Assembly: GCA_965552055.1 (NCBI GenBank)
Contig: CBEVQO010000001.1
Span: 320,001 to 384,000, forward strand
Reading direction: 5' to 3'
Length of the DNA: 64,000 nt
Source: an uncultured bacterium
GTDB lineage: Bacteria > Hydrothermota > UBA3073 > NMUJ01 > CBEVQO01
Each line of letters starts with the position of its first letter. The stretch's first letter is position 1. Below, piece by piece: positions 4,286-58,009 of this stretch. A program made the translations under genes and the position numbers. The notes beneath the pieces are model-generated. The model did not search any database. It was not told where the DNA came from and saw only the letters and a list, made by a program, of their open reading frames with translations.

Positions 4286-5101
4286 ATGAAAGAATTATTA
4301 ACAATTTTGAAGGAAGATTTAGACACGCAAAGGAAAATATTCGGATTGTTGCAGAAGATGACAAAACTGATGGAAGATAAGGTGAAAAATGTATACGCAA
4401 TCGAAAAGTCGCTATCAGAAATGGAGAAATTGGTGAAAAAGATGAGAGAAAGCGAGATTAAGAAAAAATTACAGGAATTTATCGAAAAAGAAGGAGAAAA
4501 ATTGCGAAGTTTAAAGAATGAATTAAAATTGAAGCTGTTTACACAGTTAAAGGAAAAATTGCAAAAGGGAGGATTAAATTTAAAAGGCCAATATCCCAAT
4601 TTGTACTGTGGGATTTTTACATTGAAAATAGATTTTGAGAGAGGGGCTGTGAGATTGCTAATAGGACCCGAAGAAGTATCGAAATTGCAGTTAAATCCCG
4701 ATAATGTTGCTGATTATATTTTGAAATATATGAAGGAATTAAAGGAAAGGGAATTTGATGCATCTAAATTTTATAATCTTTTGCGTCAGGCATACAGGAG
4801 ATATGTTTTGTTGAATAATATGCAGGATGGTGATAGAGCACCCATTGTTGGTGTGTATAATGAATTTGTGTTATTAAACCAGCCAAAAAGTTTCTTTATA
4901 GAGCCAAAGAGGGAGAACTTTAAGCCTTATCCCCGTTTATTTTTCGCATATGACCTTTATAGACTCAGACGGACACAGTTTAAAGATAAGATAAATTTGA
5001 TAGTCGCTACATTGCAGGCAACATCCGATCAGACAAAGTATATGTATATTTTTGATACAGAAGAGTCAGGTACAAGGTATTCTTACATTATCGTAAGATG
5101 A
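4286..5101 (+). CDS. Hypothetical protein (N-terminal coiled coil)
   Basis: 271-aa ORF tightly packed between bamA and tsaD; no recognisable motif. Confidence 0.75.
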   Translation: MKELLTILKEDLDTQRKIFGLLQKMTKLMEDKVKNVYAIEKSLSEMEKLVKKMRESEIKKKLQEFIEKEGEKLRSLKNELKLKLFTQLKEKLQKGGLNLKGQYPNLYCGIFTLKIDFERGAVRLLIGPEEVSKLQLNPDNVADYILKYMKELKEREFDASKFYNLLRQAYRRYVLLNNMQDGDRAPIVGVYNEFVLLNQPKSFFIEPKRENFKPYPRLFFAYDLYRLRRTQFKDKINLIVATLQATSDQTKYMYIFDTEESGTRYSYIIVR

Positions 5102-6090: not shown

Positions 6091-6135
6091 ATGAAAAAAT
6101 CTTGACAAATCAAATAATTGTGTTATAATAATATA

Positions 6136-7164
6136 ATGTTGATGATAAGTTTTTTAGTTGGAATTAGTTTATTTTATAACCCTCTGAAGATAACTATGGG
6201 CTATAATTTTTATAACCACAGACCGTTGGGTGAAGTATATCTTAATACCGTGGGTTTCAAAGTAAAGAATGTATCTGTGGGAGTAAGTTTTCATTATTTT
6301 TCTTATGTCCAGACAACTAAATATATAGAATTTGGGAAAAAGGTGCAAACAACTGTGGGAGAGTATGAGCGTGCCCGTGTAATCTATGAAAACATTGACC
6401 ATTTTGGTGTAATGAATATAGGATTTTCTTTTAAACGCATAAATTTTCGGCTCACGATACCACTATGGGTTATAAACGATGACTGGTATATGTGGGGGTT
6501 GATTCGTTATTTTGATTCCGATTCGAGTTTAAGCTTCCTTGATTGCCAAAGTGAGCCTCTCTTTTTTATAAAACCTTCTCTTTGTTATCAATTCAAGGGA
6601 AATAAATATGGATTATTGAAGCTTGAGGCAGGATTATTTTTATTAAAATTTCCAAGTCTAAGGGGTTATGACTATTCTACTTCATTGGAACCTTCTCCTT
6701 TATCAAATAAAATAAAAACTTTCTTTATTTCTCCTTATGTTCAGGCAAATTGTGATTTTTCCAAAATAGAAATTTCGAGGCACAATACTCTTACGGATAT
6801 GGCATTAAATATAGGTATTTGTACTGAATTAACATTGTGTTTTTTCTTTTACGCTCCTTACATAGATGAAGTTCCACTGAGTACAAGGCTTTTTACTGCC
6901 TCTTTATGGACTATGAATACTTTAGTAACTTCCTTCTTGGAACATAAAGTAAAAGAGAAGTATGGAAATAAATGGTTTATTAAGTTGTTGTCCGGTGCAT
7001 CCACAGGGCTTATATGGGGAGCGGGAAACCTTTTATTTGCTGGATTGACGGATGCGGAAATTTATTTAGGAAGTGGAGATTATCTTGCAACTACTTACAG
7101 TTGTGTGACGGTACTGGGAATAGGGATGCTTTCGCATGTACTAACATCTTTAATTTTTGATTAA
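6136..7164 (+). CDS. Hypothetical membrane/exported protein
   Basis: Long ORF with hydrophobic N-terminus and several C-terminal hydrophobic helices; start placed at ATG 6136, 6 nt after TATAAT (6124-6129). Confidence 0.7.
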   Translation: MLMISFLVGISLFYNPLKITMGYNFYNHRPLGEVYLNTVGFKVKNVSVGVSFHYFSYVQTTKYIEFGKKVQTTVGEYERARVIYENIDHFGVMNIGFSFKRINFRLTIPLWVINDDWYMWGLIRYFDSDSSLSFLDCQSEPLFFIKPSLCYQFKGNKYGLLKLEAGLFLLKFPSLRGYDYSTSLEPSPLSNKIKTFFISPYVQANCDFSKIEISRHNTLTDMALNIGICTELTLCFFFYAPYIDEVPLSTRLFTASLWTMNTLVTSFLEHKVKEKYGNKWFIKLLSGASTGLIWGAGNLLFAGLTDAEIYLGSGDYLATTYSCVTVLGIGMLSHVLTSLIFD

Positions 7165-7168
7165 TTTA

Positions 7169-9862
7169 TTATGAATGGAAAAGTTCTTCTCGAAGTATTT
7201 TTACACTTTCTTTGAATATATTGGGCATCTGTATTCCGAAATATTTCTTTATATATTCATCTATTTCTTTGTGTGCACTCTTTATCAGTGCGATGTCTTT
7301 TGAAGTTATATGCCATGTCCCGTGTGTCAGCCTTCCTAAGTTTCTTATGTCTCGGAGAGGTTCTAATACATCTTTTTCTATTTTTAAAAATTCCTTGATT
7401 TTTTCCGTTCTTTCATCGTCAGGATGCTCCGCGCACCATTTTTCTAATTTTTCTATTTTTTTAGGAAATCTTTTTTCTTCTTTGGTAAGCTTTATTCCTA
7501 TTTCTTCCAGAAAGCATTTTATTATATTTTCGTTTATAGCGAACAGCTCCATAACTGCTTCTGTGTTTTCATCTCTATCTATGTAAATCTCTGCAATGTC
7601 TTTCATCAATTTTATCAATACTTTTTTATTTTCATTAGATGCTGTTAATGTTTCTTCAAGGTTTTCGAATTTCTGTGCGATTTCAGGCTCTTTTTCTTTC
7701 AACCTTTCGAATCTTTCCAATGCTGCCCTTATGTTGAAGTCCCATAATATCTGTAATATCATGAGTATTTCTTTTGCCCATTTCTGATGTCTGAATGGTG
7801 AATTGTCTATCTCTTCTTTTGCTGGTGCGAACAGGCATTTATCAAGTAATCTTTCTATTCTTTCTTTTGCTCTATTTTGCAATATTTCTCTGAAATAATT
7901 TATCTCCCTTGGTTCCCCATCTTCACCTTCTTTTGGTTTTTCTCTTGATATATAATAAAATCTTGTATTTTCGTCCAGGAATTCCATTGCAAGGGTGAAG
8001 TAAGTTGCTGGTGCTCCTGCTGCTACCTGAATGCATTTGCACGGGTATTTTTTTAATTCTTTTGCATGTTCTTTGCTGAATTTCTTCATCCATTCTGACA
8101 TTTTATCGTAATCCGCTGGATTTTCCCTTATTTTTATTATTTCCGTTTCTATGTTAAAATTCTTCTCTATAAAGTTCTTAGTGATATTTGCAAGAAATAT
8201 CGTATCCTGTCTGTTTTTCTCTCTATCTTTTTGATCCGTTGCAAGGAGAAATATCTTTTTAAGAGTGAACTTATCATTCAGCAGTTTTATAAGTGGGGTT
8301 ATCAGCGGGAATTTTATTCTTTTTACGAGAAATCTTTCTCTTTCTCTGGTATCCCGTTTTACGAGTTCCACTTCTATTCCATCTGTGATTATCATATTGT
8401 TTTCGATTTTTGTTTCTCTTTCTATTTCCCGCTGGAGTATTTCTGTTGCTTCTCTGAAATTTATGAATTTTCTACTCAATTCTCTCACCTCTGTATCTGA
8501 GAAAAGGACTATATCCGAGTTTCCGAGTGTGTAAAGCAGGCATGCTTCTTCTTTTGCTGGCTTTGCATATATTTCTCCTGCTTCATTGATTTTTGTAATC
8601 ACTACATCCATTTCTTCCCCCTTTTTATATTTTAGACGCGAATATAAATTAGCTTCTTTCCCATTTATATCGATTATTGTTTCTCTGTATTCTGAAAATT
8701 TTACTTTTGCCTTATAAATTTTACTTTTCCCTTCTTTTAGTTCTTTTATCATTTGTGCCTTTTCAATCGATACTATTGCGGTATTGTTATTTTCATTGAT
8801 TCTTTCCACGAACACATCTATTTTTTCTTTATTTTCAAACTTATCTGCTTCCCAGTTTTTTTCTATCACCTTGCATACATATCCTCCATTGAGTAACAGG
8901 ATTGTTTTTTTATCTTTTTTACATACGATTGCTTTGTTTATTGATTTTGGCAGTGGGAATGTTTCATCTTCGAAATATTTTTCCACACAATATTTTGGCA
9001 TTTTAAGGTACAGCGATGTTCCTCTTTTCTCCAGTATTTGCACCGTTAATGTGTCGCCATTTTCCGGTCTGTCACATACTTTCTCTTTGCTTCTCGGCAA
9101 AAAGCAATCGACTCCCATTATCTGCACAATTGAGCCTGCTTCCTTTACCTCTTTAACTATACCGGTAAAAATGGCATCGCGGTTATCCTGCCATGTCTGA
9201 ATTATCTTTGCTTTGTTTACAGATACCTTTGCCCTCTTATTCCTGTAATCAATATAATCTATGAAAACAGGGATATGATCATATGGTGTTGATTCTAATT
9301 CTTCGTATGTTTCTCCTATTATTCCTGTTGGCAATTCGACTTCGCACAAATGTCCTGTTTTTATTATCCTTCCATAGACAATAATTCCCTCGCGGATTCG
9401 CGGAATCTTTTCAATTTCTTCCTTTATCCGGGGTAATTCTTCAATTGATGTTATTGAGCGTTTTTTCATCTCAAACTCATTTATTAATACCGAGTATCTG
9501 TATATATCTGCTCTGAGCAAATTGATGGCTTCCTTTGTCTCCTCCATGCTTCTTTTAAACTCCATTTTTCTTTCTCGATCAAGTGTATAGCCCTCTCTCT
9601 TATAAAATTCCAGTTCCTTCCTGAAAGCTTGCCTTATTTCTATGAGGTCTTCTATCATCTTTTTTCTTTCTTCTTTCAATTCTCTTATGAGCTCGTTGTA
9701 TCCCCTTATTAATTCTGCTCTTTTTGCTTTTCTTCTATAATAATATGCTTCTCTTTGTTTAATCCTGTAATATGTTCTTCTTCTTTTTTCTTCTTCCTTT
9801 TTTCTTTCGAGTATCTTTTTTGCTATAAATGCACCTACGCCTATTGCAATCCATATCCACAT
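7169..9862 (-). CDS. Type III CRISPR ancillary protein: TM anchor - coiled coil - four S1-like domains - CARF - HEPN (897 aa)
   Basis: MWIWIAIGVGAFIAKK anchor; S1-like FTGIVKEVKEAGSIVQIMGVDCFLPRS; CARF-like YTLGNSD..LLATDQ..QDTIFLA..AAGAPA, paralogous to the 450-aa ORF; HEPN RNLGRLTH (Rx6H); last gene of the csm operon. Confidence 0.75.
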   Translation of the reverse strand: MWIWIAIGVGAFIAKKILERKKEEEKRRRTYYRIKQREAYYYRRKAKRAELIRGYNELIRELKEERKKMIEDLIEIRQAFRKELEFYKREGYTLDRERKMEFKRSMEETKEAINLLRADIYRYSVLINEFEMKKRSITSIEELPRIKEEIEKIPRIREGIIVYGRIIKTGHLCEVELPTGIIGETYEELESTPYDHIPVFIDYIDYRNKRAKVSVNKAKIIQTWQDNRDAIFTGIVKEVKEAGSIVQIMGVDCFLPRSKEKVCDRPENGDTLTVQILEKRGTSLYLKMPKYCVEKYFEDETFPLPKSINKAIVCKKDKKTILLLNGGYVCKVIEKNWEADKFENKEKIDVFVERINENNNTAIVSIEKAQMIKELKEGKSKIYKAKVKFSEYRETIIDINGKEANLYSRLKYKKGEEMDVVITKINEAGEIYAKPAKEEACLLYTLGNSDIVLFSDTEVRELSRKFINFREATEILQREIERETKIENNMIITDGIEVELVKRDTRERERFLVKRIKFPLITPLIKLLNDKFTLKKIFLLATDQKDREKNRQDTIFLANITKNFIEKNFNIETEIIKIRENPADYDKMSEWMKKFSKEHAKELKKYPCKCIQVAAGAPATYFTLAMEFLDENTRFYYISREKPKEGEDGEPREINYFREILQNRAKERIERLLDKCLFAPAKEEIDNSPFRHQKWAKEILMILQILWDFNIRAALERFERLKEKEPEIAQKFENLEETLTASNENKKVLIKLMKDIAEIYIDRDENTEAVMELFAINENIIKCFLEEIGIKLTKEEKRFPKKIEKLEKWCAEHPDDERTEKIKEFLKIEKDVLEPLRDIRNLGRLTHGTWHITSKDIALIKSAHKEIDEYIKKYFGIQMPNIFKESVKILREELFHS

Positions 9863-10275
9863 TATTTTTCCGGAATTAATTTAATTACTTCGTTGATGTT
9901 AATGTAAAATTCGGCTATTTTATCATTTATTTCTTTCAATTTATCATCGGTTAATGCGTTCATTTCTCTTAGTTCCTCTTTTACTTTTTCATATTTGCTT
10001 ATGAATTTTTCCAGTTCCTTTATCTGATTGATGAGTTCTTTTCTTCTTTCTCTTTTTTCCTCGAGATATGCTTTAGCCATCTTTACCACTGCATCTACTT
10101 TTTCTTTCCATATTTCTTTTTCTATTTCGGCTTTTTCATAGATGTGTCTTATTTTTAATCTTTCTCTTTCGGTTAGTTCTTTTTCTTTTCTATAAGCGAA
10201 ATATTCTGCAGCAGCTCTGCATGCCTCTATTATTGCCAGTCCCATTGCTCCTATTGTCGTTAGTATCGGTATCAT
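9862..10275 (-). CDS. Small coiled-coil protein with hydrophobic N-terminus, in type III-A operon
   Basis: MIPILTTIGAMGLAIIEAC then charged helical sequence; TGATG and TAATG overlaps with neighbours. Confidence 0.8.
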   Translation of the reverse strand: MIPILTTIGAMGLAIIEACRAAAEYFAYRKEKELTERERLKIRHIYEKAEIEKEIWKEKVDAVVKMAKAYLEEKRERRKELINQIKELEKFISKYEKVKEELREMNALTDDKLKEINDKIAEFYININEVIKLIPEK

Positions 10276-10742
10276 CAGCCTGTTTTTAAAGCAAAAGGAG
10301 TATATGTTAATTGCCTTGAAATTTCAAGTCTATGACCCAATATCTCTGTTATTTTTTCGCCCACCTCTTTTATCTTATCTAATTCATAACCGTTTTTAAT
10401 CATTTCGAGATGCACAGATGTGTATTTATGTAGTATTTCGTCTATTGACTGTATTGTCTTTAAAATTGCTTCTCTTGTTTCCTTTGCATCTTCTCTCTGC
10501 ATTTTCAGATATTTCAGATTGAACTCTATTTGTTCTCGCAAAGCCGTGAGCTCTGTTCTCATTTTTTCTCTCTCTGCCTCAAGTCGCATTTTCAGCTGAT
10601 TTGTCCTTTCCTGTTCAATCTTCCACTCCATGAATTTAACAGCGCAATCTTTCATGGCATCTATCAGTTCGGTAATTATGAAAATTCGGCTCAAAATTTT
10701 ACCGGTTACAACCTTGACAGGGGGTTTAGGAGATTTCTTCAT
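10275..10742 (-). CDS. Small coiled-coil protein with amphipathic N-terminus, apparent paralog of downstream ORF
   Basis: GGAGG RBS upstream; overlaps end of CARF-HEPN gene; aligns by eye with the 137-aa ORF. Confidence 0.8.
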   Translation of the reverse strand: MKKSPKPPVKVVTGKILSRIFIITELIDAMKDCAVKFMEWKIEQERTNQLKMRLEAEREKMRTELTALREQIEFNLKYLKMQREDAKETREAILKTIQSIDEILHKYTSVHLEMIKNGYELDKIKEVGEKITEILGHRLEISRQLTYTPFALKTG

Positions 10743-12078
10743 AGCACCTCCTTATTTCATAAAAGGGATTTTCACCCGTTGAAACATCAACATGCGAAAG
10801 AAGTATTTTTATATCTTTAAACAACTCTTTTATGCCCTTTCCGTAATGCTTTTCAATATCCTCCTTATCTATTCCCTCATATCCATGTGCACCTATTGAT
10901 TTATGCCTTAATGACACCAGTTTATGTAGATTATCAAGAATAGATTCGACTTCCGGATTTACTTTGCCTTCGGTATTTAAGTTCTTAAAAATACATTTCA
11001 GTAGATAAAGGGAAATCGTTTCCAGCCTTAATTTTTCCTTTTCTATTATCTCTTTACATTTTTCCTTGCATTCTTCGATAAATTTATCGTCCTCCAATGG
11101 CAATCCCCAGTATTTATACATTATCAGCCTGTATATCATCTGTATGAATGTGTAAAGTCGTGTTAACATGTCGATATATTCTCCTTTCTTCTCTTTTAGT
11201 TGCATATTGTAATATAATTCAGTCAGTTTCTTTTTAAAACCTGTTATGTCTTTTTTCAACAATTCATCTATTTCTACCTTGTGTCTTATGAGGATATCCT
11301 GAAGATGTCCTTTTTCGTCCTTTATTGCCATTTCCAGATATTCCTTTGCTTTTTCAAACAGGAATAATTCTCTATAGTAAAGGTAATTATAAACATTACT
11401 TTTATCAATATGCATTGCTCCATAAAAATCATAATGTTCGATTAGTGCTTTTGTATTCATTTTTGCGAATGTCTGAGAAATCTCTTTCCCCAACCTTAAA
11501 TTTATGGGTATTGATTCACCTTTTGTATCTATTTCTTTTGAGTAATAAATTTCGACCTTTTCTCCGAAGTATTTTACTGCCTGAAAAGCGAGAGCAAAAT
11601 TACATGCAGGTGTGCCACCTGTAATCGATACAAAAATTCTATCATAAGATTTATGCAATCCTTTCTCCATAAATTTTTTCATCCTGCCGTCATAATAATC
11701 TAGCATCAAATCATAAATGTTGGGTTGAAGTGTGATACAATCAGAAATATGAATTGTCCCCAATTTTCTAAACCCTTTTTCTTTTCTCTTTTTTTCATCC
11801 AAAAATTTTTTGATTATCTGTGCATAAAATATCGTATCTTTCTTTTTAAACTTTTCATCTTCCTGATCCGTTGCAAACATTACGATATCAAGAATCTCCG
11901 TACGCTTGAAAATTTCTTTAAGTACAGGTTCTATAATTGGTAATTTTATTTTAGTTTTGAACTTCTCATAGTTAAGTAATAAATATTCGCCTTTTTCCCT
12001 TGGTACCTGAGGCAAAGAAGGGATATCTATTAAGATATCATTATTACCTATATTTATGAATAAGACATCTTTACCCAT
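10726..12078 (-). CDS. Csm6/Csx1-like CARF-HEPN ribonuclease (cyclic oligoadenylate effector)
   Basis: CARF-like INIGNND..MFATDQ..KDTIFYA..VSITGGTPA; C-terminal HEPN RHKSIGAHG; directly downstream of csm5. Confidence 0.85.
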   Translation of the reverse strand: MGKDVLFINIGNNDILIDIPSLPQVPREKGEYLLLNYEKFKTKIKLPIIEPVLKEIFKRTEILDIVMFATDQEDEKFKKKDTIFYAQIIKKFLDEKKRKEKGFRKLGTIHISDCITLQPNIYDLMLDYYDGRMKKFMEKGLHKSYDRIFVSITGGTPACNFALAFQAVKYFGEKVEIYYSKEIDTKGESIPINLRLGKEISQTFAKMNTKALIEHYDFYGAMHIDKSNVYNYLYYRELFLFEKAKEYLEMAIKDEKGHLQDILIRHKVEIDELLKKDITGFKKKLTELYYNMQLKEKKGEYIDMLTRLYTFIQMIYRLIMYKYWGLPLEDDKFIEECKEKCKEIIEKEKLRLETISLYLLKCIFKNLNTEGKVNPEVESILDNLHKLVSLRHKSIGAHGYEGIDKEDIEKHYGKGIKELFKDIKILLSHVDVSTGENPFYEIRRCYEEIS

Positions 12079-13130
12079 CCCGGTGGTATTACATTTTCTC
12101 CTTTCATGATGACTGCACGGGTATCGGGCAGATATTTTTTCAATCTCCTTTTAGTCCAGTATTTTGTATTTTGATAATTTTCCCACTGCCTTAAAATATC
12201 CTTATCATCTTTTATCAACATAATAACCGTTTGACACCAGAATGTTTTACCAAATCCTATTCTACCTATGCATTCGTTTTGCTTTAAACTTTTCATCTTA
12301 TATAAGAGGTCTTCATAAAAATCTATCAAACTTCTTATAGGATTATCTTCTTTTGCTTTCTTTATCTCATTTATTTCCATTTTTATGAATTCTTCGAAGA
12401 ATTCGTTTACTATTTTAAAAATGTTCTTCAAGTCTGTGAACACATCTTTTAAATTTTTGTTTAATATCGGTATATTTAAAAGATTTATTTCGGAATTGAT
12501 TTTTGTATTTTCAACTATTGCTTCGCATGGCTGTGGTACTCCTTTCACCCTCTTTGCAATGTATAATCTTCTTACATTGAAAATTTTAATATTTTTTTCT
12601 TCGATAAATTCACTATCTTTTATAAGCAAATTTTTAAATGGGTCTCTATGAGGGTCGCCAAAAATTCTTCTATTGAGCTCAGAAAATTCATATTTTGCTC
12701 TTTTCTTCCATATATTCCTGATTTCCTTTTTTAACAATGAGATATTGTTTTTCAAATAATGATATGCAACGCATGTTCTTATCATTCCTTTTATGGAAGT
12801 TCCGGGCATATAATATTTTCCGTCGGTCTTTATATACGATGAAATTTCACCACTTATTTCATCATCTGCAGGTATCTCCCTTTCTATAACATCATCAAAT
12901 CTTACCCCATGCTTCCGGGCAAATCTTTTGATATCTTTCCCAGATTTTATCTCCCCTGTTTTTACTTCTGATATATATTCCTCGATAATTCCCTTTTCCG
13001 AAAGTTTTTCCATGAGTTTACTCTCGGATATTATTCTCACCTTTCCGCTTTCACAAATGTAATCTATGGAGTGATATTTCTGTTCACTTCCTATATGTAC
13101 AGGGCTTAATGTTTCGATAACCAGTTTCAT
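12054..13130 (-). CDS. csm5: Type III-A RAMP protein Csm5
   Basis: ETLSPVHIGS, YMPGTSIKGMIRT, IGRIGFGKTF, PPGWV; position after csm4. Confidence 0.92.
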   Translation of the reverse strand: MKLVIETLSPVHIGSEQKYHSIDYICESGKVRIISESKLMEKLSEKGIIEEYISEVKTGEIKSGKDIKRFARKHGVRFDDVIEREIPADDEISGEISSYIKTDGKYYMPGTSIKGMIRTCVAYHYLKNNISLLKKEIRNIWKKRAKYEFSELNRRIFGDPHRDPFKNLLIKDSEFIEEKNIKIFNVRRLYIAKRVKGVPQPCEAIVENTKINSEINLLNIPILNKNLKDVFTDLKNIFKIVNEFFEEFIKMEINEIKKAKEDNPIRSLIDFYEDLLYKMKSLKQNECIGRIGFGKTFWCQTVIMLIKDDKDILRQWENYQNTKYWTKRRLKKYLPDTRAVIMKGENVIPPGWVKMSYS

Positions 13131-14104
13131 TTTACACCGAATTTTATTCCAAAATTTATACCATAATGATAGACAGGATGCTCCAGTTTCCCTGTATCTA
13201 TTTTATACAATTCGCCATGGGGGATGTTTTTAATAACGCTTCCTTCCTTTATCATCATTATTCTTGGTTTCAAATATCCAGTGCCTCCTATTGATGTTAT
13301 CCATCCTCCTCTTGGTATTATCTGATATGATATGAAATCGCAATTCTTAAGGTCAGCGTCAGATGGATATACGAGTGATAGATTTACACAATATTCCCCA
13401 TCTTTTATATTTAACTCAATTTCTCCTTCTTCAATTTCAAACCTTCCTGCTCCTGATGAGCGCTCAGCACCTATTCCCTCTTCAGCCATAAGCTCAAAAT
13501 AGTAAGTTTCGTCACCCAGATAAAGGAAATAAAAGAAAGGTCTAACATCTTTGTAATTTATACCATAAAGAAATGTCTGATAAAAAGGAACAGAACCCCT
13601 CTGTAGCCTGTCAATTCCGACACTTACTTCATCGTGGAATACAAAAATCTCAATCCCGTATTCGGGTAGCTCATCTTCCATAACACCAAACTTACCAAAG
13701 GTTACCCTGCCAAAAGGTGCGGAAGTAAGAAGTGTATCATCAAGTAATTTGACATTGTTCAATATTTCTTCAAAAAGTTTCAGAGATACATATTTTACTC
13801 TTCTTAATCTTTTTTTCATCTCTTCTTCATCATCTGTTTTTTCTGGTTTTATAAAAGGTCTTGGTAAGAAATAAATTTCCTTATCGTTGATTTGAATTCC
13901 GAGGAAAGCCGAAGAGAGCAAGAACTTGCCTTTTAGCGTTTTTTCTATTATTTCCTCTGCTTTATTTTTGTCCAATTTTGCAACAGAATTTATGAGTGCA
14001 GAATAAAGTGTATCCGAAGGGATATAATCGATTTCGTATTTCGGCATACCTATTTTTAGTTTGATACCTGTTTTACTCTTTAATTTTATCGCTTTAAACT
14101 TCAT
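13127..14104 (-). CDS. csm4: Type III-A RAMP protein Csm4
   Basis: IPSDTLYSAL, LSSAF, GIGAERSSGAGRF, RGGWI, HPVYHYG. Confidence 0.92.
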   Translation of the reverse strand: MKFKAIKLKSKTGIKLKIGMPKYEIDYIPSDTLYSALINSVAKLDKNKAEEIIEKTLKGKFLLSSAFLGIQINDKEIYFLPRPFIKPEKTDDEEEMKKRLRRVKYVSLKLFEEILNNVKLLDDTLLTSAPFGRVTFGKFGVMEDELPEYGIEIFVFHDEVSVGIDRLQRGSVPFYQTFLYGINYKDVRPFFYFLYLGDETYYFELMAEEGIGAERSSGAGRFEIEEGEIELNIKDGEYCVNLSLVYPSDADLKNCDFISYQIIPRGGWITSIGGTGYLKPRIMMIKEGSVIKNIPHGELYKIDTGKLEHPVYHYGINFGIKFGVK

Positions 14105-15038
14105 TTTTGAATCTCTCCCATATTTCATCTATCTTTTCTTTTAACTCTTCAACACTCTTTAATGTGTCGATTTCGACTGGTTTTTCTTTTGTTCTATAAT
14201 GTTTTTGTGTTTTGATTTTTACTTTTATTTCTTTGAATTTAACCTTTCCATATCCTCTTGAGCCCGAGCCTCCCAGATAATCGTCTTCCAGCAATCCCAT
14301 TGCTGTTATAAATGCGGTGAAGAAATTTTTGTCTCTATCGGTGTCATAGACATTAAAAACGAAATCTCCTTTAAATTCTGCACCTGCAGGTACTCTCTCG
14401 AAGTGCCTTGGATTTGCAGCAGATGTCAATCTATCAATTGTGTTTTCGAATTTCGCCTCGGTATAAAGGTTGTCTTCCGCTAGCTCGGGGAAGTCCTTTT
14501 TGAACTTCTCTTCATCGAGCAAAGCATCCCTAGCATATAGGCGTGTTGGCTCAGAAGAAGAATGCTCAGCAGGTCTACCAAAAGTTACGCATATTTCACA
14601 ATCATCCCTCGGGCAAATATGTATAAATACACCTCCCTGCTCATGCCAGTTATACTTTTCTTTCAATTCTTTTTTTATATTTTCTAATTCTTTTTCAATT
14701 TTCTCTTTTTCTCTTTCTTTGCTTTTTCTCTCTTCTGATTTTCTTGGGTCATTTTTTTCTTGTTGTTTAAGCATTTTTATTTCTTTCTCTAATTTTTTCT
14801 TTTCTTCTTCCTTTTCCCTGTAAGGTTTAAGAGGCTTTAAATCTTTTTCTTTTCTTTCGAGCAGGCATCTCATTTTACCTTTTATTGAGCTACCAGGGAT
14901 AAAGGGCACTCCTCTTGGATCTTTTATAACAGGATTATCGAGTCCTCCTATTTCCAGTGTCTCTTTTCCAGCCCCTATTGACAAACCCGTTTTCGCCTCT
15001 AAAACATACTCTATTATTATCTTGCCCAATAAACGCAT
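14094..15038 (-). CDS. csm3: Type III-A backbone RNase Csm3, with ~55-aa charged insertion
   Basis: GLSIGAG..GGLDNPVIKDP..PFIPGSSIKGKMR, ENTIDR, ERVPAG, LGGSGSRGYG. Confidence 0.95.
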   Translation of the reverse strand: MRLLGKIIIEYVLEAKTGLSIGAGKETLEIGGLDNPVIKDPRGVPFIPGSSIKGKMRCLLERKEKDLKPLKPYREKEEEKKKLEKEIKMLKQQEKNDPRKSEERKSKEREKEKIEKELENIKKELKEKYNWHEQGGVFIHICPRDDCEICVTFGRPAEHSSSEPTRLYARDALLDEEKFKKDFPELAEDNLYTEAKFENTIDRLTSAANPRHFERVPAGAEFKGDFVFNVYDTDRDKNFFTAFITAMGLLEDDYLGGSGSRGYGKVKFKEIKVKIKTQKHYRTKEKPVEIDTLKSVEELKEKIDEIWERFKNEV

Positions 15039-15039
15039 A

Positions 15040-15405
15040 TCACCCCCTTGAGTTAAAATATTTGTGATAGGCTATTATGCCCTCAAATAGCTGTTTGAAT
15101 TTTTCCACATTTGATTCTGTTTTGATACTTTGTATTACTTCTTCAAGCGCTTCGCAGAAATCTCCAAGTTCTTTCTGTCTGGCTCCTGCGTATGCCAATC
15201 TATATCTCATTAAAGCGAGTTCCTCGGGTTTATTAATCGTCATTATTTTGCTATAAATGCTTCTTAATTGATGCATTGAAACTTTTTTCAGCTTTTCTGC
15301 GCACTTCCTTATCCTGTCTACAAATTCATTTCCTTCTAATGAGAGAATATCAGCGAGAATTTGTTTATAGGGATTTTTGTCCTTACTTGCTTTTCTCTCA
15401 TTCAT
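15040..15405 (-). CDS. csm2: Type III-A small subunit Csm2
   Basis: HQLRSIY, RLAYAGAR, FEGIIAYHKY; lies between cas10 and csm3. Confidence 0.92.
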   Translation of the reverse strand: MNERKASKDKNPYKQILADILSLEGNEFVDRIRKCAEKLKKVSMHQLRSIYSKIMTINKPEELALMRYRLAYAGARQKELGDFCEALEEVIQSIKTESNVEKFKQLFEGIIAYHKYFNSRG

Positions 15406-17558
15406 GGCTCCCTCCTTCTTAATTTAAAATCTACCAATCTTGCTGCAACAGCAAGCAAATGTTTATTCTCTACTTTCATATCTTCTATCATATTTCTGAT
15501 GATTATATCCTGATTTATCTTTACTAGTTTTTCTATCGAATCTTTTATATTTTTCTTTTTTGCTTCGTGTCGCAAATAATATGCGAATCTCCATACCTTT
15601 TTCACATTTATCTTGTTGTGAAGCGAGTCCTCAAGCAATGCTCCGAAGCCCTTTGTTGCCTTTATAATTTTGCGACAAATACGCAATGCATCCTCTTTGC
15701 TTTCAATATCGGAGAGTTTCTCAAGCTCATCTTTTATCTCGTTAAGATACATAAATTCATCGCTGTTAAATATTTCACCCATAACATTTATGTTGTTCTT
15801 CATCTCTATGCTTACACCATTAACTTTTTCGATTTTCTTCTTCCCCTTTGCTTTCTCGAGGCGTTCTTCAGCTATCCTTACTGCTCTTATCACAGGAAAT
15901 TTCTCATCTATAATAGTATAACTGCCACTCATTGTTACATATTTGTTTTTTGCAACAAATTCTTTAAATGTATGTCTCATCTCACACAGTAAATTATAAA
16001 CTTTATCCCATGCACCGAAAAGAAGGGTATCGTCTCCACCGGAGAATACAAGATAAATATTTTCGCTGTATCCCTTATTTTCTCTGATTAATTTCGGGAA
16101 ATATAATGAAAAGAATAAGTGCATCATATTGCTCAATCTCATTCTTTCGAGGAAAGTTGCATCTTTTATTCCTTTAGAGAATATTTTGCCAAGATTATCC
16201 ACATCGCATTTCAATATTCCAAGTGCCTTTATGCCTTCGCTTCCCTGTGCTATTTCATCAAAGTCTTTAATATTGTTATTTGTCATCGGCAAATTCAAAG
16301 GTATGAATTTAAAACCATCGACATCCATCTTTGTATCGTTTATCTCATAATAAATCCCATCTGGACCTTTGCTTTCTGCAAATCCGATATCAAATCCCAA
16401 TTTTTCGAATATCATTTTGTAATTCTGTGCTTCAACATTATTGCACTCTTTTTCGTAAAAATATTTCGCAGTTTTTAATTCATTCGTAAGTTGTTGGAAA
16501 CTTTCGCAGTATTCGCAAATGCCATTTTCTTCTTTCGCTTCCCTGAAATTACATATTTTACATGGCTTTCCCTTAATTTCAACAGAATTAAATATTTCTG
16601 GCAAAATGTCTTTAAACTTCCTGTTCTTATCGCGATTTACTTTTGAGAAAAGTATTTTGTATTTTTCATTTAATTTATCTGGCTGTGATATATCCATTGC
16701 ATTTAATTTTTCCCATGCTATTGCGATATAAATTTCGCCCCGATGCACCTCCCATAATATTTCGTGAATTTGCTTTTTTAAATCTTTTAGCCTATCTTCG
16801 TCCTTTAATCTGGCTATCATCTGGAAATTTGCGCCACCGCAATACAATAGATTGCTGATAGGTAAATTTAAGTTCTTCAGGATGAATTTTGCAATAAACT
16901 CGCATAATAAATCGAGATAAAGTGAGCGTCCTCTTAACGATTTTGCAGCTCCTTTTGATGGAATATCAAAGATAAAATTTTGCACCCCGGAGATATCACC
17001 TGCGATTATTAAACATACATCTTTTTCGGGATTACTTTCAATTTCGTTCAAAACAGATTCGTCTGCACCATACTGGTCGAATATCGCGAGCGCAAGCGAT
17101 GACAAAAGCTTAGATGCTTCAAAAATGGAAACAGATTCAAGGGAAGAATATTGAAGCGGATAAAAGAAGAAATATTTTTCTATAAGGTGCAACAATTTTA
17201 TGAAAGGTTTGTTATAATAAAGGTCTGTATTTTTGATAGCGTTTTGTAAATTATTCCATTCTTTTTGCAATTCCTTTTTGAATTCATCGATGCAATTTAT
17301 TTTTGCTGGATTATTACAAGGTATATTTAATTTAGTTGCGAGGAGTGGTTCTTTATTATGAAATTTTTTGGTATCCTGTTTAAATATTTTTGAGAAGATG
17401 GAGAGGCAATTTTCGATTTGTGTTTTTTGTTTATTTTTGAAAATAAGGTTATATGCTATTTTAACGGGAGGAGCATTGAAAGGCAGATTGAGGTTCAAAT
17501 TGGAGATTTCATTTACGGGATACAAAAGAGCACCGAGATATAGCTCGGTTCTCCTCAT
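15402..17558 (-). CDS. cas10: Cas10/Csm1 with intact Palm cyclase motifs and degenerate HD domain
   Basis: GDISGVQNFIF, KSLRGRS, CKIC..CEYC Zn finger, KCDVDNLG, FSGGDD; N-terminal GALLYPVNE in place of ALLHDIGK. Confidence 0.95.
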   Translation of the reverse strand: MRRTELYLGALLYPVNEISNLNLNLPFNAPPVKIAYNLIFKNKQKTQIENCLSIFSKIFKQDTKKFHNKEPLLATKLNIPCNNPAKINCIDEFKKELQKEWNNLQNAIKNTDLYYNKPFIKLLHLIEKYFFFYPLQYSSLESVSIFEASKLLSSLALAIFDQYGADESVLNEIESNPEKDVCLIIAGDISGVQNFIFDIPSKGAAKSLRGRSLYLDLLCEFIAKFILKNLNLPISNLLYCGGANFQMIARLKDEDRLKDLKKQIHEILWEVHRGEIYIAIAWEKLNAMDISQPDKLNEKYKILFSKVNRDKNRKFKDILPEIFNSVEIKGKPCKICNFREAKEENGICEYCESFQQLTNELKTAKYFYEKECNNVEAQNYKMIFEKLGFDIGFAESKGPDGIYYEINDTKMDVDGFKFIPLNLPMTNNNIKDFDEIAQGSEGIKALGILKCDVDNLGKIFSKGIKDATFLERMRLSNMMHLFFSLYFPKLIRENKGYSENIYLVFSGGDDTLLFGAWDKVYNLLCEMRHTFKEFVAKNKYVTMSGSYTIIDEKFPVIRAVRIAEERLEKAKGKKKIEKVNGVSIEMKNNINVMGEIFNSDEFMYLNEIKDELEKLSDIESKEDALRICRKIIKATKGFGALLEDSLHNKINVKKVWRFAYYLRHEAKKKNIKDSIEKLVKINQDIIIRNMIEDMKVENKHLLAVAARLVDFKLRRREP

Positions 17559-17590: not shown

Positions 17591-17703
17591 GAATTTTTTC
17601 AAAAAATTTTTCATCTCATTATTATATACGAGTGAGAGTGCAAAAATGTGACAAAAAATTTTCAAAAATTTCAAAAGAACAGGATTCGATGACAAAACTT
17701 AAA

Positions 17704-20266
17704 GTCCCAATCCCTTATAAATGGACTCAAAACCTAAACAAGTTTCAATCCCTTATAGCAGGCTCGAAACTATCCGAGAGATTGCTTGGAAGTGTGGTGG
17801 TATGCTTTAAAGTTTCAATCCCTTATAGGTAGGCTCGAAACAGGTAAATAAAAGGAGGCGACTATGAACTTAAAAAATTTGTTTCAATCCCTTATAGGTA
17901 GGCTCGAAACATATTCGATTGGATATGATGTTGTCATAGCTCGACAAAGTTTCAATCCCTTATAGGTAGGCTCGAAACTTTCTTATCGGATTATTGGTTT
18001 ATTGGCTTTTATCAAGTTTCAATCCCTTATAGGTAGGCTCGAAACTTTTACTCGCCTCGCCAATTCGCAGTCGATTTAGATGTTTCAATCCCTTATAGGT
18101 AGGCTCGAAACTACCCATCTGGGAGAGGAAACGCTTGAAGAAGATTTGTTTCAATCCCTTATAGGTAGGCTCGAAACCAAGACCAAGTTGTCCTCGCCAC
18201 GCTCCACACTTCTTAGTTTCAATCCCTTATAGGTAGGCTCGAAACTTTGACATCGATTTCTGCCTTTTTGATGATTTTGTCGTTTCAATCCCTTATAGGT
18301 AGGCTCGAAACGAGATACTCAGGGAAGAATAATAGGAGCAAAGTCTCGTTTCAATCCCTTATAGGTAGGCTCGAAACCTTAAATTTAATGGTAGGAACAT
18401 TAAGAAGTATATAAGTTTCAATCCCTTATAGGTAGGCTCGAAACCGGCCGTGAAGCGTATCATGGATGACCTCGTGCCTTACGTTTCAATCCCTTATAGG
18501 TAGGCTCGAAACGCTGAAAAGCCCCGTTGAAGGTGACATCAGAGAAGGTGTGTTTCAATCCCTTATAGGTAGGCTCGAAACCTAAATGGAGCAAAGCCAG
18601 CCTCGTAATCGGGCTGTGGTTTCAATCCCTTATAGGTAGGCTCGAAACTCTTGTGGCGTGAATGTATCTCTGACATAATATTCATCGTTTCAATCCCTTA
18701 TAGGTAGGCTCGAAACTATGCTTGTGACGAGTTTGAAAGACAATTCCCTTACAGGTGTTTCAATCCCTTATAGGTAGGCTCGAAACGAATTACTATACAG
18801 GCGGAATACAGAATAATGCATTAGTTTCAATCCCTTATAGGTAGGCTCGAAACTTAGCAGGTGCAACGGCAACAGGCACCGCAGGTGTTATAGTTTCAAT
18901 CCCTTATAGGTAGGCTCGAAACTCCGTTAGTCTGCAAAGGCATGAACGCAGATTTTGAGTTTCAATCCCTTATAGGTAGGCTCGAAACTCGCTTTTTCGA
19001 CATTTACCAGGTCAAAATTTTCGATGTTTCAATCCCTTATAGGTAGGCTCGAAACTTTTATATTAAAAAGTATAATTTAAATATTAATCCTGTGTTTCAA
19101 TCCCTTATAGGTAGGCTCGAAACGGGATAGGTATATAGCCACACTTCCTTATTTCCCCATGTTTCAATCCCTTATAGGTAGGCTCGAAACGGATAGGAAA
19201 GCGGCGCCGTTGATTTTCAAAAAGGAGTTTCAATCCCTTATAGGTAGGCTCGAAACGATCCTCGATTCGATCATTTTCGTGTCCGCAAATGGTTTCAATC
19301 CCTTATAGGTAGGCTCGAAACTGGAGGTGGTATGTTGAAGTTGTTTTTAAAAGAACAATGTTTCAATCCCTTATAGGTAGGCTCGAAACGTTAATGAGGA
19401 GGATTGATGTATCGATTGTTGACATATGTTTCAATCCCTTATAGGTAGGCTCGAAACATCAATTTTAAGAGATTTGCCTGGTGGTCCAATAGGCCTTTCA
19501 ATCCCTTATAGGTAGGCTCGAAACGAGTTTTATATTAAATGCACAAAATGCAATAAAATACTTTCAATCCCTTATAGGTAGGCTCGAAACTGTCGAAGCC
19601 TCTTCTTCTTGTTGAAGTTGATGAAATTTCTTTCAATCCCTTATAGGTAGGCTCGAAACGGGAAAAATATCGTCAGTATTTGCGTGCTAATGTCGTTCTT
19701 TCAATCCCTTATAGGTAGGCTCGAAACAAAATTTTCAAAAGAAGAAATTGAACTTGCTAAAAACTTTCAATCCCTTATAGGTAGGCTCGAAACTAGATTT
19801 GCCATCATCTTCGGGCAGGGGACTCAATGTCTTTCAATCCCTTATAGGTAGGCTCGAAACGAAAATTGAGGAGATTGAATGGAGTGAGAAAGAATTCTTT
19901 CAATCCCTTATAGGTAGGCTCGAAACCTATTAAGAGGTTTAGGTAGTTTGGTTTGTAATCGTTCTTTCAATCCCTTATAGGTAGGCTCGAAACATTCCAT
20001 GCGTCTGCTTCTTCACGAGTAGTGTTGCCAACTTTCAATCCCTTATAGGTAGGCTCGAAACGTGGTTTTACAGGTGGAATACATGATATAATCGAAGCTT
20101 TCAATCCCTTATAGGTAGGCTCGAAACAGAGTGGATAGAGGAATTCTTTGCCGAACCTGTATTAACTTTCAATCCCTTATAGGTAGGCTCGAAACGAAAC
20201 AGCGAAGAATTGTATTACGATGGGCATAGGATAACGCTTTCAATCCCTTATAGGTAGGCTCGAAAC
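17704..20266 (-). CRISPR. CRISPR array 1: 39 repeats / 38 spacers; repeat GTTTCGAGCCTACCTATAAGGGATTGAAAC on minus strand
   Basis: 25 canonical repeats 17812-19457; 12 leader-proximal variants ending GAAAG 19495-20266; two degenerate trailer repeats at 17704 and 17742 separated by 8 bp. Confidence 0.98.
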
Positions 20267-47242: not shown

Positions 47243-47668
47243 ATGAGGGAAATACAGGCAAAAATAAAATTAATAAATTATGAGGATATGGAATTATATG
47301 CAGAAGGTTCGATAAAAGATACACAAATAAGAGTGGTAGAAGAAGAAGGCATAATTGACACTAATTTAAGACGCCTCATCATACCAAGAAGAATCTTCGA
47401 AAAACTTGGCTTAAGAAAAATCGACGAAGTTGAAGTTACTTATGCGGACGGAAGAAAGGAAAAGAAAACAGTCGCCTCCGTAGTGATAGTGGAAATAAAA
47501 GGAAGAAAGGCATACACCACACCGATAGTTGAAGAAAATGACAAAATACTGATCGGCAACCCAATTCTCGAAGAGATGGATTTCTATATCGATACCGTAA
47601 CAGGGGAGATAAAGCCGCGCCACCCCGAGGCAAAAGGTCCGGTTGAATTTATAGGGAGTGTAAAATGA
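47243..47668 (+). CDS. Clan AA (retropepsin-like) aspartic protease homolog, copy 1
   Basis: GIIDTNLRRLII (DTG-like site), YADGR, ILIGNPILEEMD. Confidence 0.7.
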   Translation: MREIQAKIKLINYEDMELYAEGSIKDTQIRVVEEEGIIDTNLRRLIIPRRIFEKLGLRKIDEVEVTYADGRKEKKTVASVVIVEIKGRKAYTTPIVEENDKILIGNPILEEMDFYIDTVTGEIKPRHPEAKGPVEFIGSVK

Positions 47669-50632: not shown

Positions 50633-50686
50633 ATTTTTTGGAAATTTTTTACTTGACAAACTGAGAATTTAAATTATAAAAGAAAG

Positions 50687-53979: not shown

Positions 53980-53980
53980 A

Positions 53981-57492: not shown

Positions 57493-57513
57493 TAAATTTC
57501 CTATCCGAATAAA

Positions 57514-58008: not shown

Positions 58009-58009
58009 A

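What the first reader, a model, noticed from the sequence alone, without database searches (positions are those of the whole stretch)
7169..12078. Candidate novel membrane-associated type III-A effector module (CARF-HEPN + coiled-coil pair + TM-CC-S1x4-CARF-HEPN)
Seen: four ORFs follow csm5 with overlapping or shared stop/start codons (12078/12054, 10742/10726, TGATG at 10275, TAATG at 9862), so they belong to the csm operon. Cas10 keeps GGDD but lacks HD, so immunity beyond Csm3 target cleavage should depend on cyclic-oligoadenylate effectors. Known: Csm6/Csx1 are soluble cOA-activated RNases, and Cam1/Csx23 are membrane effectors without nuclease domains. I do not recognise this combination among described type III accessory loci. 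Inference: the three proteins with N-terminal hydrophobic/amphipathic helices and coiled coils form a membrane complex that localises or regulates a cOA-activated RNase, or couples RNA decay to membrane disruption.
Basis: partly seen in the sequence, partly recalled or inferred. Interest (0 to 1): 0.92.

Follow-up and report, generated by a model that had tools for sequence, protein, structure and literature searches.

The report
S1-repeat Csm6 RNase with orphan partners
A CRISPR type III-A operon ends with an ordinary signal-activated RNase, two small helical proteins seen nowhere else, and a one-of-a-kind RNase that carries a possible membrane anchor and four RNA-binding S1 domains.

Summary
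Four minus-strand ORFs (450, 155, 137 and 897 aa) follow csm5 with overlapping stop and start codons. Cas10 keeps GGDD and has no HD motif. ORF450 is a standard Csx1/Csm6-family CARF-HEPN RNase. Residues 437-897 of ORF897 are a confidently folded Csm6-like CARF-HEPN with an intact R-x6-H motif. Residues 1-436 hold a 14-residue hydrophobic N-terminus, three long helices and four S1 barrels. Among 1.84 billion representative proteins no other cluster carries the fusion. Seven free-standing ~310-aa proteins share the hydrophobic head, helices and two S1 barrels; their gene neighbourhoods could not be fetched. ORF155 and ORF137 are paralogues of each other with no other relatives. My reading is a new architectural variant of the cOA-activated Csm6 RNase, with RNA capture by the S1 domains. 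Membrane tethering is plausible but not shown, and binding of the small proteins is only inferred. Interest is moderate, about 0.5, not 0.92.

The parts
10726..12078 (-). ORF450: soluble Csx1/Csm6-family CARF1-HEPN RNase (R391-x6-H398)
   Evidence: PADLOC Csx1 PDLC01509 at 1.2e-72 over residues 5-445. Pfam Csm6 HEPN at 8e-11. The R and H align with columns that are invariant across 48 family members.
10275..10742 (-). ORF155: small helical protein with a basic, proline-rich N-terminus and an amphipathic helix; paralogue of ORF137; no other relatives
   Evidence: BLASTP against ORF137 gives E 6e-8. The shuffle test gives z 10.5, with 0 of 1000 shuffles reaching the score. A profile search found only the two ORFs themselves. 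No family hit is above noise.
9862..10275 (-). ORF137: small helical protein with an N-terminal hydrophobic helix (16 uncharged residues; KD 1.82 over 19 aa); paralogue of ORF155
   Evidence: Heptad-type periodicity was reached by 9 of 1000 shuffles.
7169..9862 (-). ORF897: fusion of an N-terminal module (hydrophobic head, three helices, four S1 barrels) to a Csm6-like CARF-HEPN
9821..9862 (-). ORF897 residues 1-14: hydrophobic N-terminal helix followed by a +5 charged stretch; candidate membrane anchor
   Evidence: The N-terminal segment is the most hydrophobic window in 7 of 8 family members.
9449..9859 (-). ORF897 residues 2-138: three long helices (2-43, 48-93, 96-138); coiled-coil-like
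   Evidence: AF2 model. Heptad periodicity was reached by 15 of 1000 shuffles.
8558..9382 (-). ORF897 residues 161-435: four S1/OB barrels, arranged as two S1-S1 units
   Evidence: Pfam S1. Internal repeat at E 3e-16. AF2 model. Foldseek match to bS1 at 2e-11 and to phage S1 homologues.
7172..8554 (-). ORF897 residues 437-897: Csm6-like CARF plus HEPN (R840-x6-H847)
   Evidence: PADLOC hit. 84 free-standing homologues. AF2 pLDDT 93.5. Foldseek best matches are 6tug, 8pe3 and 5fsh. A PDB profile search hits 6tug at 1e-14. Motif positions were checked.
12054..17558 (-). cas10 (HD-less, GGDD at residue 507), csm2, csm3, csm4 and csm5
17699..20266 (+). CRISPR array: 37 exact copies of the repeat core plus degenerate copies at 17699 and 17741

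Best explanation
The region is the signalling arm of an HD-less type III-A CRISPR system.

Proposed sequence of events: target RNA binds the Csm complex, which switches on the Cas10 cyclase (GGDD). The cyclic oligoadenylate (cOA) produced binds the CARF domains of two RNases of the Csm6/Csx1 family, and their HEPN sites then cut RNA non-specifically.

- ORF450 is the ordinary soluble RNase.
- ORF897 is a new architectural variant. A Csm6-like CARF-HEPN has been fused behind a module made of a short hydrophobic head, about 120 residues of long helices, and four S1 RNA-binding barrels.
- The fused module is homologous to a rare family of free-standing proteins of about 310 aa with a hydrophobic head, helices and two S1 barrels.
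- I infer that the S1 array captures single-stranded RNA for the HEPN site.
- I infer that the head and helices hold or oligomerise the enzyme at the inner face of the membrane. This layout parallels RNase Y (TM, coiled coil, KH, HD).
- ORF155 and ORF137 are lineage-specific paralogous helical proteins, translationally coupled between the two RNases. Their most likely role is as partners of the ORF897 helical stalk.

Shown here: gene order, domain identities, intact catalytic motifs, the uniqueness of the fusion, the paralogy of the small ORFs, and purifying selection.

Inferred only: cOA activation, RNA capture by the S1 domains, membrane anchoring, and binding of the small proteins.
For: Operon and Cas10:
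- Operon structure with overlapping codons.
- Cas10 has GGDD and no HD motif.

The two RNases:
- ORF450 matches PADLOC Csx1 at 1.2e-72.
- ORF897 C-terminus: PADLOC CARF1--CARF_HEPN at 1.8e-20. 84 of the 91 other hits in the representative search are free-standing CARF-HEPN proteins of 188-575 aa that match residues 437 onward.
- R840 and H847 sit in columns that are invariant across 48 sequences.
- AF2 pLDDT is 93.5. The best Foldseek matches are E. italicus Csm6, S. thermophilus Csm6' and T. thermophilus Csm6.

The N-terminal module:
- 7 of the 91 hits are free-standing proteins of 303-336 aa that align to residues 3-281.
- Four S1 barrels are supported.
- The N-terminal hydrophobic segment is the most hydrophobic window in 7 of 8 family members.

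The small ORFs:
- ORF137 and ORF155 are paralogues (z 10.5; 0 of 1000 shuffles reach the score).

Selection:
- Across four metagenome runs there are 26 SNPs, 19 synonymous and 7 non-synonymous. The only indels in the long near-identical contigs are in frame.

Comparison with RNase Y:
- RNase Y architecture is taken from passages of PMC9775385.
Against: - The hydrophobic head of ORF897 is only 14 residues. Its KD score is 1.41 over 19 aa, below the usual 1.6 cut-off (a recalled value). In two family members (P0045, P0046) the head holds acidic residues, and in P0068 it is not the hydrophobic maximum.
- ORF155 has no transmembrane-like run.
- The small ORFs show only weak similarity to the ORF897 helices: z 3.0 and z 0.5 in shuffle tests, and hhalign probability 12-18%.
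- No homologues of the small ORFs exist to test co-occurrence.
- The fusion is known from one lineage only, so conservation cannot argue for function.
- In the four nearest type III-A loci of the phylum, a single CARF1-HEPN gene follows csm5 and nothing resembles the module.
- The cOA species, RNase activity and cellular localisation are all untested.
Confidence: 0.6

Rival explanations
1. ORF155, ORF137 and the ORF897 N-terminus form an integral membrane complex. On cOA signalling the complex also perturbs the membrane (pore formation or depolarisation), so RNA decay is coupled to membrane damage.
For: - ORF137 and ORF897 have N-terminal hydrophobic helices.
- The three genes are translationally coupled.
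- Membrane effectors such as Cam1, Csx23, Cam2/3 and CorA exist in type III systems (passages of PMC11229360).
Against: - Each protein has at most one short hydrophobic helix, and ORF155 has none.
- There are no PADLOC, Pfam, NCBIfam or PHROGs matches to known membrane effectors.
- There are no homologues for a co-occurrence test.
- A functional HEPN RNase already explains the toxicity.
Confidence: 0.15
2. ORF897 works alone as an S1-assisted soluble or oligomeric Csm6. The helices serve only for oligomerisation. ORF155 and ORF137 are unrelated passengers or regulators, for example inhibitors that keep the RNases silent, and not structural partners.
For: - The small ORFs are orphans.
- They show no significant similarity to the ORF897 helices.
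- The hydrophobic head is short.
- The free-standing N-module homologues exist as single proteins of about 310 aa.
Against: - The small ORFs are tightly coupled by TGATG and TAATG overlaps between the two RNase genes.
- ORF137 carries the same kind of N-terminal hydrophobic helix as ORF897.
- An N-terminal hydrophobic segment is kept in 7 of 8 members of the N-module family.
Confidence: 0.2
3. The S1 array mimics ribosomal protein bS1 and docks the RNase on 30S subunits or translating mRNA, so that the collateral cleavage is aimed at translation.
For: The best structural matches of the barrel region are bS1 on 30S complexes (9gut_B, 2e-11) and phage-encoded S1 homologues.
Against: - S1 barrels are generic single-stranded RNA binders.
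- TM-scores are low (0.15-0.23) because the relative orientation of the domains is not modelled.
- No residues specific to the bS1 ribosome-binding domains were tested.
Confidence: 0.1
4. The genes are decaying or were mis-called, so the fusion is an assembly or annotation artefact.
For: The fusion is known from one lineage only.
Against: - Near-identical DNA is held by 14 runs of 11 studies, with five runs holding 0.28 to 0.86 of the sampled words. In the four runs laid, independent contigs of X1 and X2 run across the junction between the S1 region and the CARF domain.
- ORF897 has 9 synonymous and 3 non-synonymous SNPs.
- A second protein, P0002, is identical over residues 1-700.
- The C-terminal half folds with pLDDT 93.5.
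Confidence: 0.03

Closest known systems
Csm6 (E. italicus 6TUG; S. thermophilus Csm6' 8PE3; T. thermophilus 5FSH) and the wider Csx1/Csm6 CARF1-HEPN family
   Same: - An N-terminal CARF Rossmann domain followed by a helical HEPN domain with R-x6-H.
- Encoded directly behind csm5 in a type III-A operon.
- Two paralogues in one locus also occur in S. thermophilus (Csm6 and Csm6').
- Basis: fold and profile matches and family matches.
   Different: - ORF897 carries a 436-residue N-terminal extension (hydrophobic head, helices, four S1 barrels).
- None of the 84 CARF-HEPN homologues found has this extension.
- Sequence identity to solved Csm6 structures is only 12-16%.
Cam1, Csx23, Cam2 and Cam3 (membrane effectors of type III systems)
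   Same: Candidate membrane localisation of a cOA sensor protein (passages of PMC11229360).
   Different: - Those proteins have helical transmembrane domains and no nuclease, and they act by depolarisation.
- Here there is one short hydrophobic helix and a complete HEPN RNase.
- There is no sequence match.
RNase Y (B. subtilis): TM, coiled coil, KH, HD
   Same: The same layout logic: an N-terminal anchor, about 130 residues of coiled coil, an RNA-binding domain, then a nuclease (passages of PMC9775385).
   Different: - There is no homology: S1 replaces KH and CARF-HEPN replaces HD.
- RNase Y is a housekeeping enzyme and is not ligand-gated.
Unnamed family of free-standing proteins with hydrophobic head, helices and two S1 barrels (P0045, P0046, P0049, P0068, P0070, P0077, P0083)
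   Same: They are homologous to ORF897 residues 3-281 at 21-26% identity, with conserved motifs in both S1 barrels and in the third helix.
   Different: - They have no CARF-HEPN, and two S1 barrels instead of four.
- Their function and neighbourhood are unknown.
- Pfam sees only S1, in 3 of 7.
Ribosomal protein bS1
   Same: Tandem S1 barrels; best structural match.
   Different: - bS1 has no hydrophobic head, helical stalk or nuclease.
- The bS1-like genes of 271 other genomes of the phylum match only the S1 part of the profile.

Membership tests
Csm6/Csx1 (CARF1-HEPN cOA-activated RNases) | N-terminal CARF (Rossmann) domain with conserved family motifs | tested here: met
   PADLOC CARF1--CARF_HEPN matches both proteins. 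G447, D450, T542, Q544, D553, T554, P582, G616 and P618 of ORF897 lie in invariant or nearly invariant columns of 48 sequences, and ORF450 has the same residues there. The AF2 model has alternating beta-alpha elements at pLDDT 93.5.
Csm6/Csx1 (CARF1-HEPN cOA-activated RNases) | C-terminal HEPN domain with the R-x4-6-H catalytic motif | tested here: met
   The motif spans R840 to H847 in ORF897 and R391 to H398 in ORF450, both R-x6-H. The R and H columns are invariant in alignment A4. Pfam Csm6 HEPN matches ORF450.
Csm6/Csx1 (CARF1-HEPN cOA-activated RNases) | Fold similarity to solved Csm6/Csx1 structures | tested here: met
   Foldseek matches 6tug at 1.3e-10 (TM 0.47-0.59), 8pe3, 5fsh and 6qzt. 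A PDB profile search hits 6tug at 1.2e-14.
Csm6/Csx1 (CARF1-HEPN cOA-activated RNases) | Encoded in a type III locus with a cyclase-competent Cas10 | tested here: met
Csm6/Csx1 (CARF1-HEPN cOA-activated RNases) | cOA-dependent RNase activity | not testable with these tools
   This needs biochemistry.
Membrane effectors Cam1/Csx23 type | Helical transmembrane domain as the effector, with no nuclease domain | tested here: not met
   There is a single short hydrophobic helix (14 uncharged residues) and a full HEPN domain. No PADLOC match to TM-CARF models exceeded the CARF_HEPN models.
RNase Y | KH and HD domains | tested here: not met
   Pfam finds neither KH nor HD in ORF897. The similarity is analogy only.
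S1 domain (PF00575) | Five-stranded OB barrel matching the S1 profile | tested here: met
   The Pfam S1 score is 25.9 bits against a cut-off of 22, for barrel 2. Barrels 1, 3 and 4 are supported by the internal repeat, by the model and by fold matches. Their own Pfam scores are below reporting level.
Csx28-like small TM + HEPN accessory proteins (considered for ORF155/ORF137) | Conserved HEPN R-x4-6-H motif behind one TM helix | tested here: not met
   The pairwise alignment of the two ORFs has 32 identical columns, among them one R and no H, so no R...H pair is shared. There is no PADLOC hit above noise. The Csx28 features are recalled and from a passage of PMC12669027.

The most novel reading that the evidence does not exclude
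A cOA-gated, membrane-tethered 'mini-degradosome'. ORF897 would be anchored by its N-terminal helix and held in a heteromeric helical stalk with the orphan paralogues ORF155 and ORF137. It would use a bS1-like array of four S1 barrels to seize single-stranded or ribosome-associated RNA. The collateral RNase of a type III system would then be spatially confined and substrate-directed rather than freely diffusing. The free-standing family (hydrophobic head, helices, two S1 barrels) would be an unrecognised class of membrane-bound RNA-binding proteins that this system recruited.
Probability: 0.2. Interest if true: 0.75.

Novelty: new variant of a known kind. Interest (0 to 1): 0.5.

Why it matters
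Characterised Csm6/Csx1 RNases are soluble enzymes that cut RNA wherever they meet it. A version with its own RNA-capture array and a possible membrane tether would show that type III systems can control where collateral RNA decay happens and on which RNA. It would also give a function to an unnamed family of S1 proteins with a hydrophobic head. The two orphan partners would be new accessory proteins. The architecture is known from one lineage only, so the general reach is limited unless the free-standing family turns out to be defence-linked.

Tried and rejected
Searches for the neighbourhood of the N-module relatives:
- Genome contigs with ORF897 and with alignment A2: no relatives found.
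- Metagenome contigs with A2: nothing.
- Metagenome contigs with P0045: 11 loci matching only the S1 part. The one I read, L009, encodes a four-S1 bS1-type protein among housekeeping genes.
- Viral contigs with A2, P0049 and P0077: nothing.
- tblastn against plasmids and phages: nothing.
- The Atlas does not hold ORF897. With P0045 it returned only generic S1 clusters at TM below 0.4.

Other attempts:
- Complex prediction on ORF897 residues 1-150, ORF155 and ORF137 gave no verdict: score 0.77, with a control at 0.72.
- The look-up of sequencing runs listed no RNA holder.
- Parts of the stretch had no cover in some runs. I draw nothing from this.
- The promoter and terminator scan found no more sites than shuffled sequence.
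- hhalign of the small ORFs against A1 gave probability 12-18%.
- PHROGs gave nothing meaningful.
- Alignment A3 placed the N-module homologues on the wrong half of ORF897 and was discarded.
- Earlier scan notes held nothing relevant.

Literature access:
- Makarova et al. 2020 (the CARF classification, PMC7498327) is not held. Its tables and supplements may list this or a similar architecture.

Full report
**Observation.** The minus strand of window 7169-17558 carries one tightly packed operon:
- cas10, 15402-17558, 718 aa; TIGR02578 at 3e-131
- csm2, 15040-15405
- csm3, 14094-15038
- csm4, 13127-14128
- csm5, 12054-13130; TIGR01899 at 3e-37
- four further ORFs of 450, 155, 137 and 897 aa

csm5 and ORF450 overlap by 25 nt, and ORF450 and ORF155 by 17 nt. 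ORF155/ORF137 share TGATG and ORF137/ORF897 share TAATG.

A convergent gene ends at 7164, five bases from the ORF897 stop codon. The plus-strand genes on that side are housekeeping (MltG, BamA, TsaD) or unassigned (ORFs 4286-5101 and 6118-7164). A CRISPR array with 37 exact repeat cores lies at 17813-20266, with degenerate copies from 17699.

Cas10 has GGDD at residue 507 and the first palm motif (GDISG) at residue 187. It has no 'HD' in its first 120 residues and no histidine in its first 60. The NCBIfam model aligns only from its position 87. The Cas10 homologues of relatives sit in open frames of 745-872 aa in 12 of 15 genomes; the other three frames are 375, 641 and 903 aa.

**The two RNases.** ORF450 is a standard Csx1/Csm6-family protein. 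It matches PADLOC Csx1 (PDLC01509) at 1.2e-72 over residues 5-445, and Pfam Csm6 HEPN at 8e-11. NCBIfam cas_csm6 scores 55 bits, below its cut-off.

The C-terminal half of ORF897 belongs to the same broad family:
- It matches PADLOC CARF1--CARF_HEPN at 1.8e-20 over residues 442-834.
- An exhaustive HMMER search of 1.84 billion representative proteins gave 92 hits at E ≤ 0.001, including the query. 84 of the other 91 are free-standing proteins of 188-575 aa that match residues 437 onward.
- In an alignment of 48 of these, with ORF450 included, the HEPN arginine and histidine are invariant. They are R840/H847 in ORF897 and R391/H398 in ORF450, both R-x6-H. Several CARF positions are invariant as well.
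- The AF2 model of residues 437-897 has mean pLDDT 93.5 and pTM 0.88.
- Its best matches to solved structures are E. italicus Csm6 bound to a cA6 analogue (6tug, 1.3e-10), S. thermophilus Csm6' with cA6 (8pe3) and T. thermophilus Csm6 (5fsh). A sequence profile also finds 6tug at 1.2e-14.

ORF450 and the ORF897 C-terminus are only 24% identical, so they are not a recent duplicate pair.

**The N-terminal module of ORF897.**
- Pfam sees one S1 domain, at residues 227-278.
- The AF2 model of residues 1-445 rests on an 8-sequence alignment, with pLDDT 69 and barrel blocks mostly at 70-86. It gives helices at 2-43, 48-93 and 96-138, then four small beta-barrels at 161-214, 232-276, 312-365 and 382-435.
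- Foldseek's best match in PDB is ribosomal protein bS1 (9gut_B, 2e-11). In BFVD the best matches are phage-encoded S1 homologues.
- A profile of the first S1-S1 unit finds the second unit inside the same ORF at E 3e-16, so the array arose by internal duplication.
- The N-terminus has 14 uncharged residues followed by a stretch with net charge +5.

**Relatives of the module.** Seven of the 91 hits are free-standing proteins of 303-336 aa: P0045, P0046, P0049, P0068, P0070, P0077 and P0083. They align to ORF897 residues 3-281 at 21-26% identity. They share motifs in the third helix and in both barrels. Pfam names only S1, in 3 of the 7. In 7 of the 8 family members the most hydrophobic 15- or 19-residue window of the whole protein is at the N-terminus, with uncharged runs of 6-22 residues. 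P0068 is the exception, and P0045 and P0046 carry acidic residues in that segment.

No hit covers both halves of ORF897. The only other full-length protein is P0002 (903 aa). It is 100% identical over residues 1-700 and then falls to 87, 49, 34 and 34% in successive 50-residue bins. P0002 is therefore an allele with a replaced HEPN C-terminus that keeps the R...H motif.

Within the host's phylum the module was not found. Among 40 relatives searched with ORF897, the only matches were in four genomes, to open frames of 542-581 aa, and covered S1 residues only. In the profile search of 271 other genomes, every listed match outside G000 starts at profile position 125 or later. These matches lie mostly in open frames of 530-730 aa, some cut short at contig ends, which I read as bS1-type genes. 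A further 174 matches were not listed.

**The small ORFs.** ORF137 and ORF155 are paralogues. BLASTP gives 26% identity over 109 colinear residues at E 6e-8. The Smith-Waterman score is 121 against a shuffle mean of 43, z 10.5, with 0 of 1000 shuffles reaching it.

ORF137 starts with a 16-residue uncharged helix (KD 1.82 over 19 aa). In ORF155 the aligned segment is amphipathic and is preceded by a basic, proline-rich 13-residue extension. Heptad-type periodicity is modest: 9, 63 and 15 of 1000 shuffles reach the observed value for ORF137, ORF155 and the ORF897 helices.

Similarity of the small ORFs to the ORF897 helices is weak. ORF155 gives z 3.0 (8 of 1000 shuffles), ORF137 gives z 0.5, and hhalign probability is 12-18%. 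I leave common origin open. A profile of the two ORFs finds only themselves among 5.8 billion clusters by the word-indexed search, and nothing else in their own genome at E below 0.05. No Pfam, NCBIfam, PADLOC or PHROGs family matches above noise.

**Are the genes real?** DNA near-identical to 7169-12078 is held by 14 public runs from 11 studies, five of which hold 0.28 to 0.86 of the sampled words. Those labelled come from hydrothermal-vent and sediment metagenomes, and none is on record as RNA. Laying four runs gave long contigs at 99% identity or more. Contigs of X1 (7431-9227) and X2 (8377-9857) cross the boundary between the S1 region and the CARF domain, and other contigs cross the small ORFs.

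There are 26 SNP positions, 19 synonymous and 7 non-synonymous:

| ORF | synonymous | non-synonymous |
|---|---|---|
| ORF897 | 9 | 3 |
| ORF450 | 8 | 3 |
| ORF137 | 2 | 1 (D to E) |
| ORF155 | 0 | 0 |

The indels carried by the long near-identical contigs are in frame: a TTT insertion at 8418 and a 3-nt deletion at 11799. This argues for expressed, selected genes. The power for the small ORFs alone is low.

**Context.** The type III-A operon has no cas6, cas1 or cas2 of its own. The same window holds a type I-B locus with cas6, cas7, cas5, cas3, cas4 and cas1 at 49907-58999 (cas6 and cas1 also). A second array at 59393-63276 has 58 copies of the identical repeat core, so crRNA processing and adaptation are probably shared.

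Cas10 homologues at E ≤ 1e-30 occur in 15 of 120 other genomes of the phylum sample, and the best is only 37% identical. In the four nearest loci that I fetched, csm5 is followed by one CARF1-HEPN gene in 4 of 4. tblastn with the ORF897 N-module, ORF155 and ORF137 finds nothing there, with a best E of 0.45. The module is thus an addition to an otherwise standard csm + csm6 layout.

**Mechanism.** What follows from established knowledge of type III systems: target RNA binding activates the Cas10 palm domains, cOA is made, CARF dimers bind it, and HEPN dimers cleave RNA. With no HD nuclease, this arm and Csm3 target cleavage are the whole response.

Both RNases have the motifs needed. The nearest solved relatives bind cA6 or cA4, and I cannot tell which ligand applies here.

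I infer three further points, none of them shown:
- The four S1 barrels raise affinity for single-stranded RNA or select substrates.
- The hydrophobic head and helices tether or oligomerise the enzyme at the membrane. The layout is analogous to RNase Y, which has a TM helix, a coiled coil over residues 22-149, a KH domain and an HD domain (passages of PMC9775385).
- ORF155 and ORF137 join the stalk.

A complex prediction gave no verdict (see Tried and rejected).

**Comparison with what is known.** ORF450 is a member of the Csm6/Csx1 family. The ORF897 C-terminus passes every sequence and fold test for that family (see the membership table). The whole protein is a new architecture.

It is not a Cam1/Csx23-type membrane effector, because it has one short helix and a nuclease. 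It is not RNase Y, because KH and HD are absent.

Literature searches:
- 'CARF' + 'S1 domain' + 'HEPN' returned one paper, on the Tiamat ATPase/DNase, judged unrelated from its title and abstract start.
- 'type III CRISPR' + 'S1 RNA-binding' + 'effector' returned none.
- 'Csm6' + 'membrane-anchored' returned six papers, none on such an effector judging by the listing.
- Term searches in the text of PMC11229360, PMC12669027, PMC9704534 and PMC6546367 found no occurrence of 'coiled', and none of the S1, OB-fold or RNA-binding terms that I tried in each. The passages shown name no S1 or coiled-coil fusion to CARF-HEPN.
- The CARF classification of Makarova et al. 2020 and its supplements could not be read, so prior listing of the architecture there cannot be excluded.

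**Verdict.** This is a real feature and a new architectural variant of a known effector kind, with two orphan accessory genes. The membrane-complex reading is open, not supported. Interest is 0.5.

Noticed in passing
window 14094-15038 (-), Csm3 residues about 60-135: Csm3 is 314 aa and carries a K/E-rich insertion of about 75 residues (64% charged). The Csm3 genes of the four nearest loci are 248-277 aa. A charged helical arm on the backbone subunit could be a docking site for the helical accessory proteins, but this is speculation.
   Followed up: partly
window 49907-58999 (+) and 59393-63276: A type I-B locus (cas6, cas7, cas5, cas3, cas4, cas1, plus two unassigned ORFs at 50687-52907) sits next to a 58-repeat array. 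The repeat core of that array is identical to the one next to the type III-A operon. The III-A system has no cas6, cas1 or cas2 of its own and probably borrows them. Two more cas6 matches lie at G000 C1:246963-247367 and C2:24030-24434.
   Followed up: partly
window 7169-7760 (-), ORF897 residues about 700-897: P0002, the only other full-length homologue, is identical over residues 1-700. It is then only 87, 49, 34 and 34% identical in successive 50-residue bins, and it keeps the R...H motif. This looks like allelic replacement of the HEPN C-terminus between strains.
   Followed up: partly
window 47243-48117 (+): Two adjacent paralogous ORFs (141 and 150 aa) match the clan AA aspartic protease model TIGR03698 at about 1e-11, below its cut-off.
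   Followed up: no
window 19490-20266 (+): Every array-1 repeat that the output shows from 19490 onward starts with C instead of G just before the core (CTTTCAATCC instead of GTTTCAATCC); a few copies in that range are not shown. Degenerate repeat copies lie at the cas10-proximal end, at 17699 and 17741.
   Followed up: no
L040:8024-10051 (G027): In the closest related type III-A locus, a 675-aa protein with no PADLOC match follows the Csx1 gene and precedes cas4. It may be another unassigned accessory gene.
   Followed up: no
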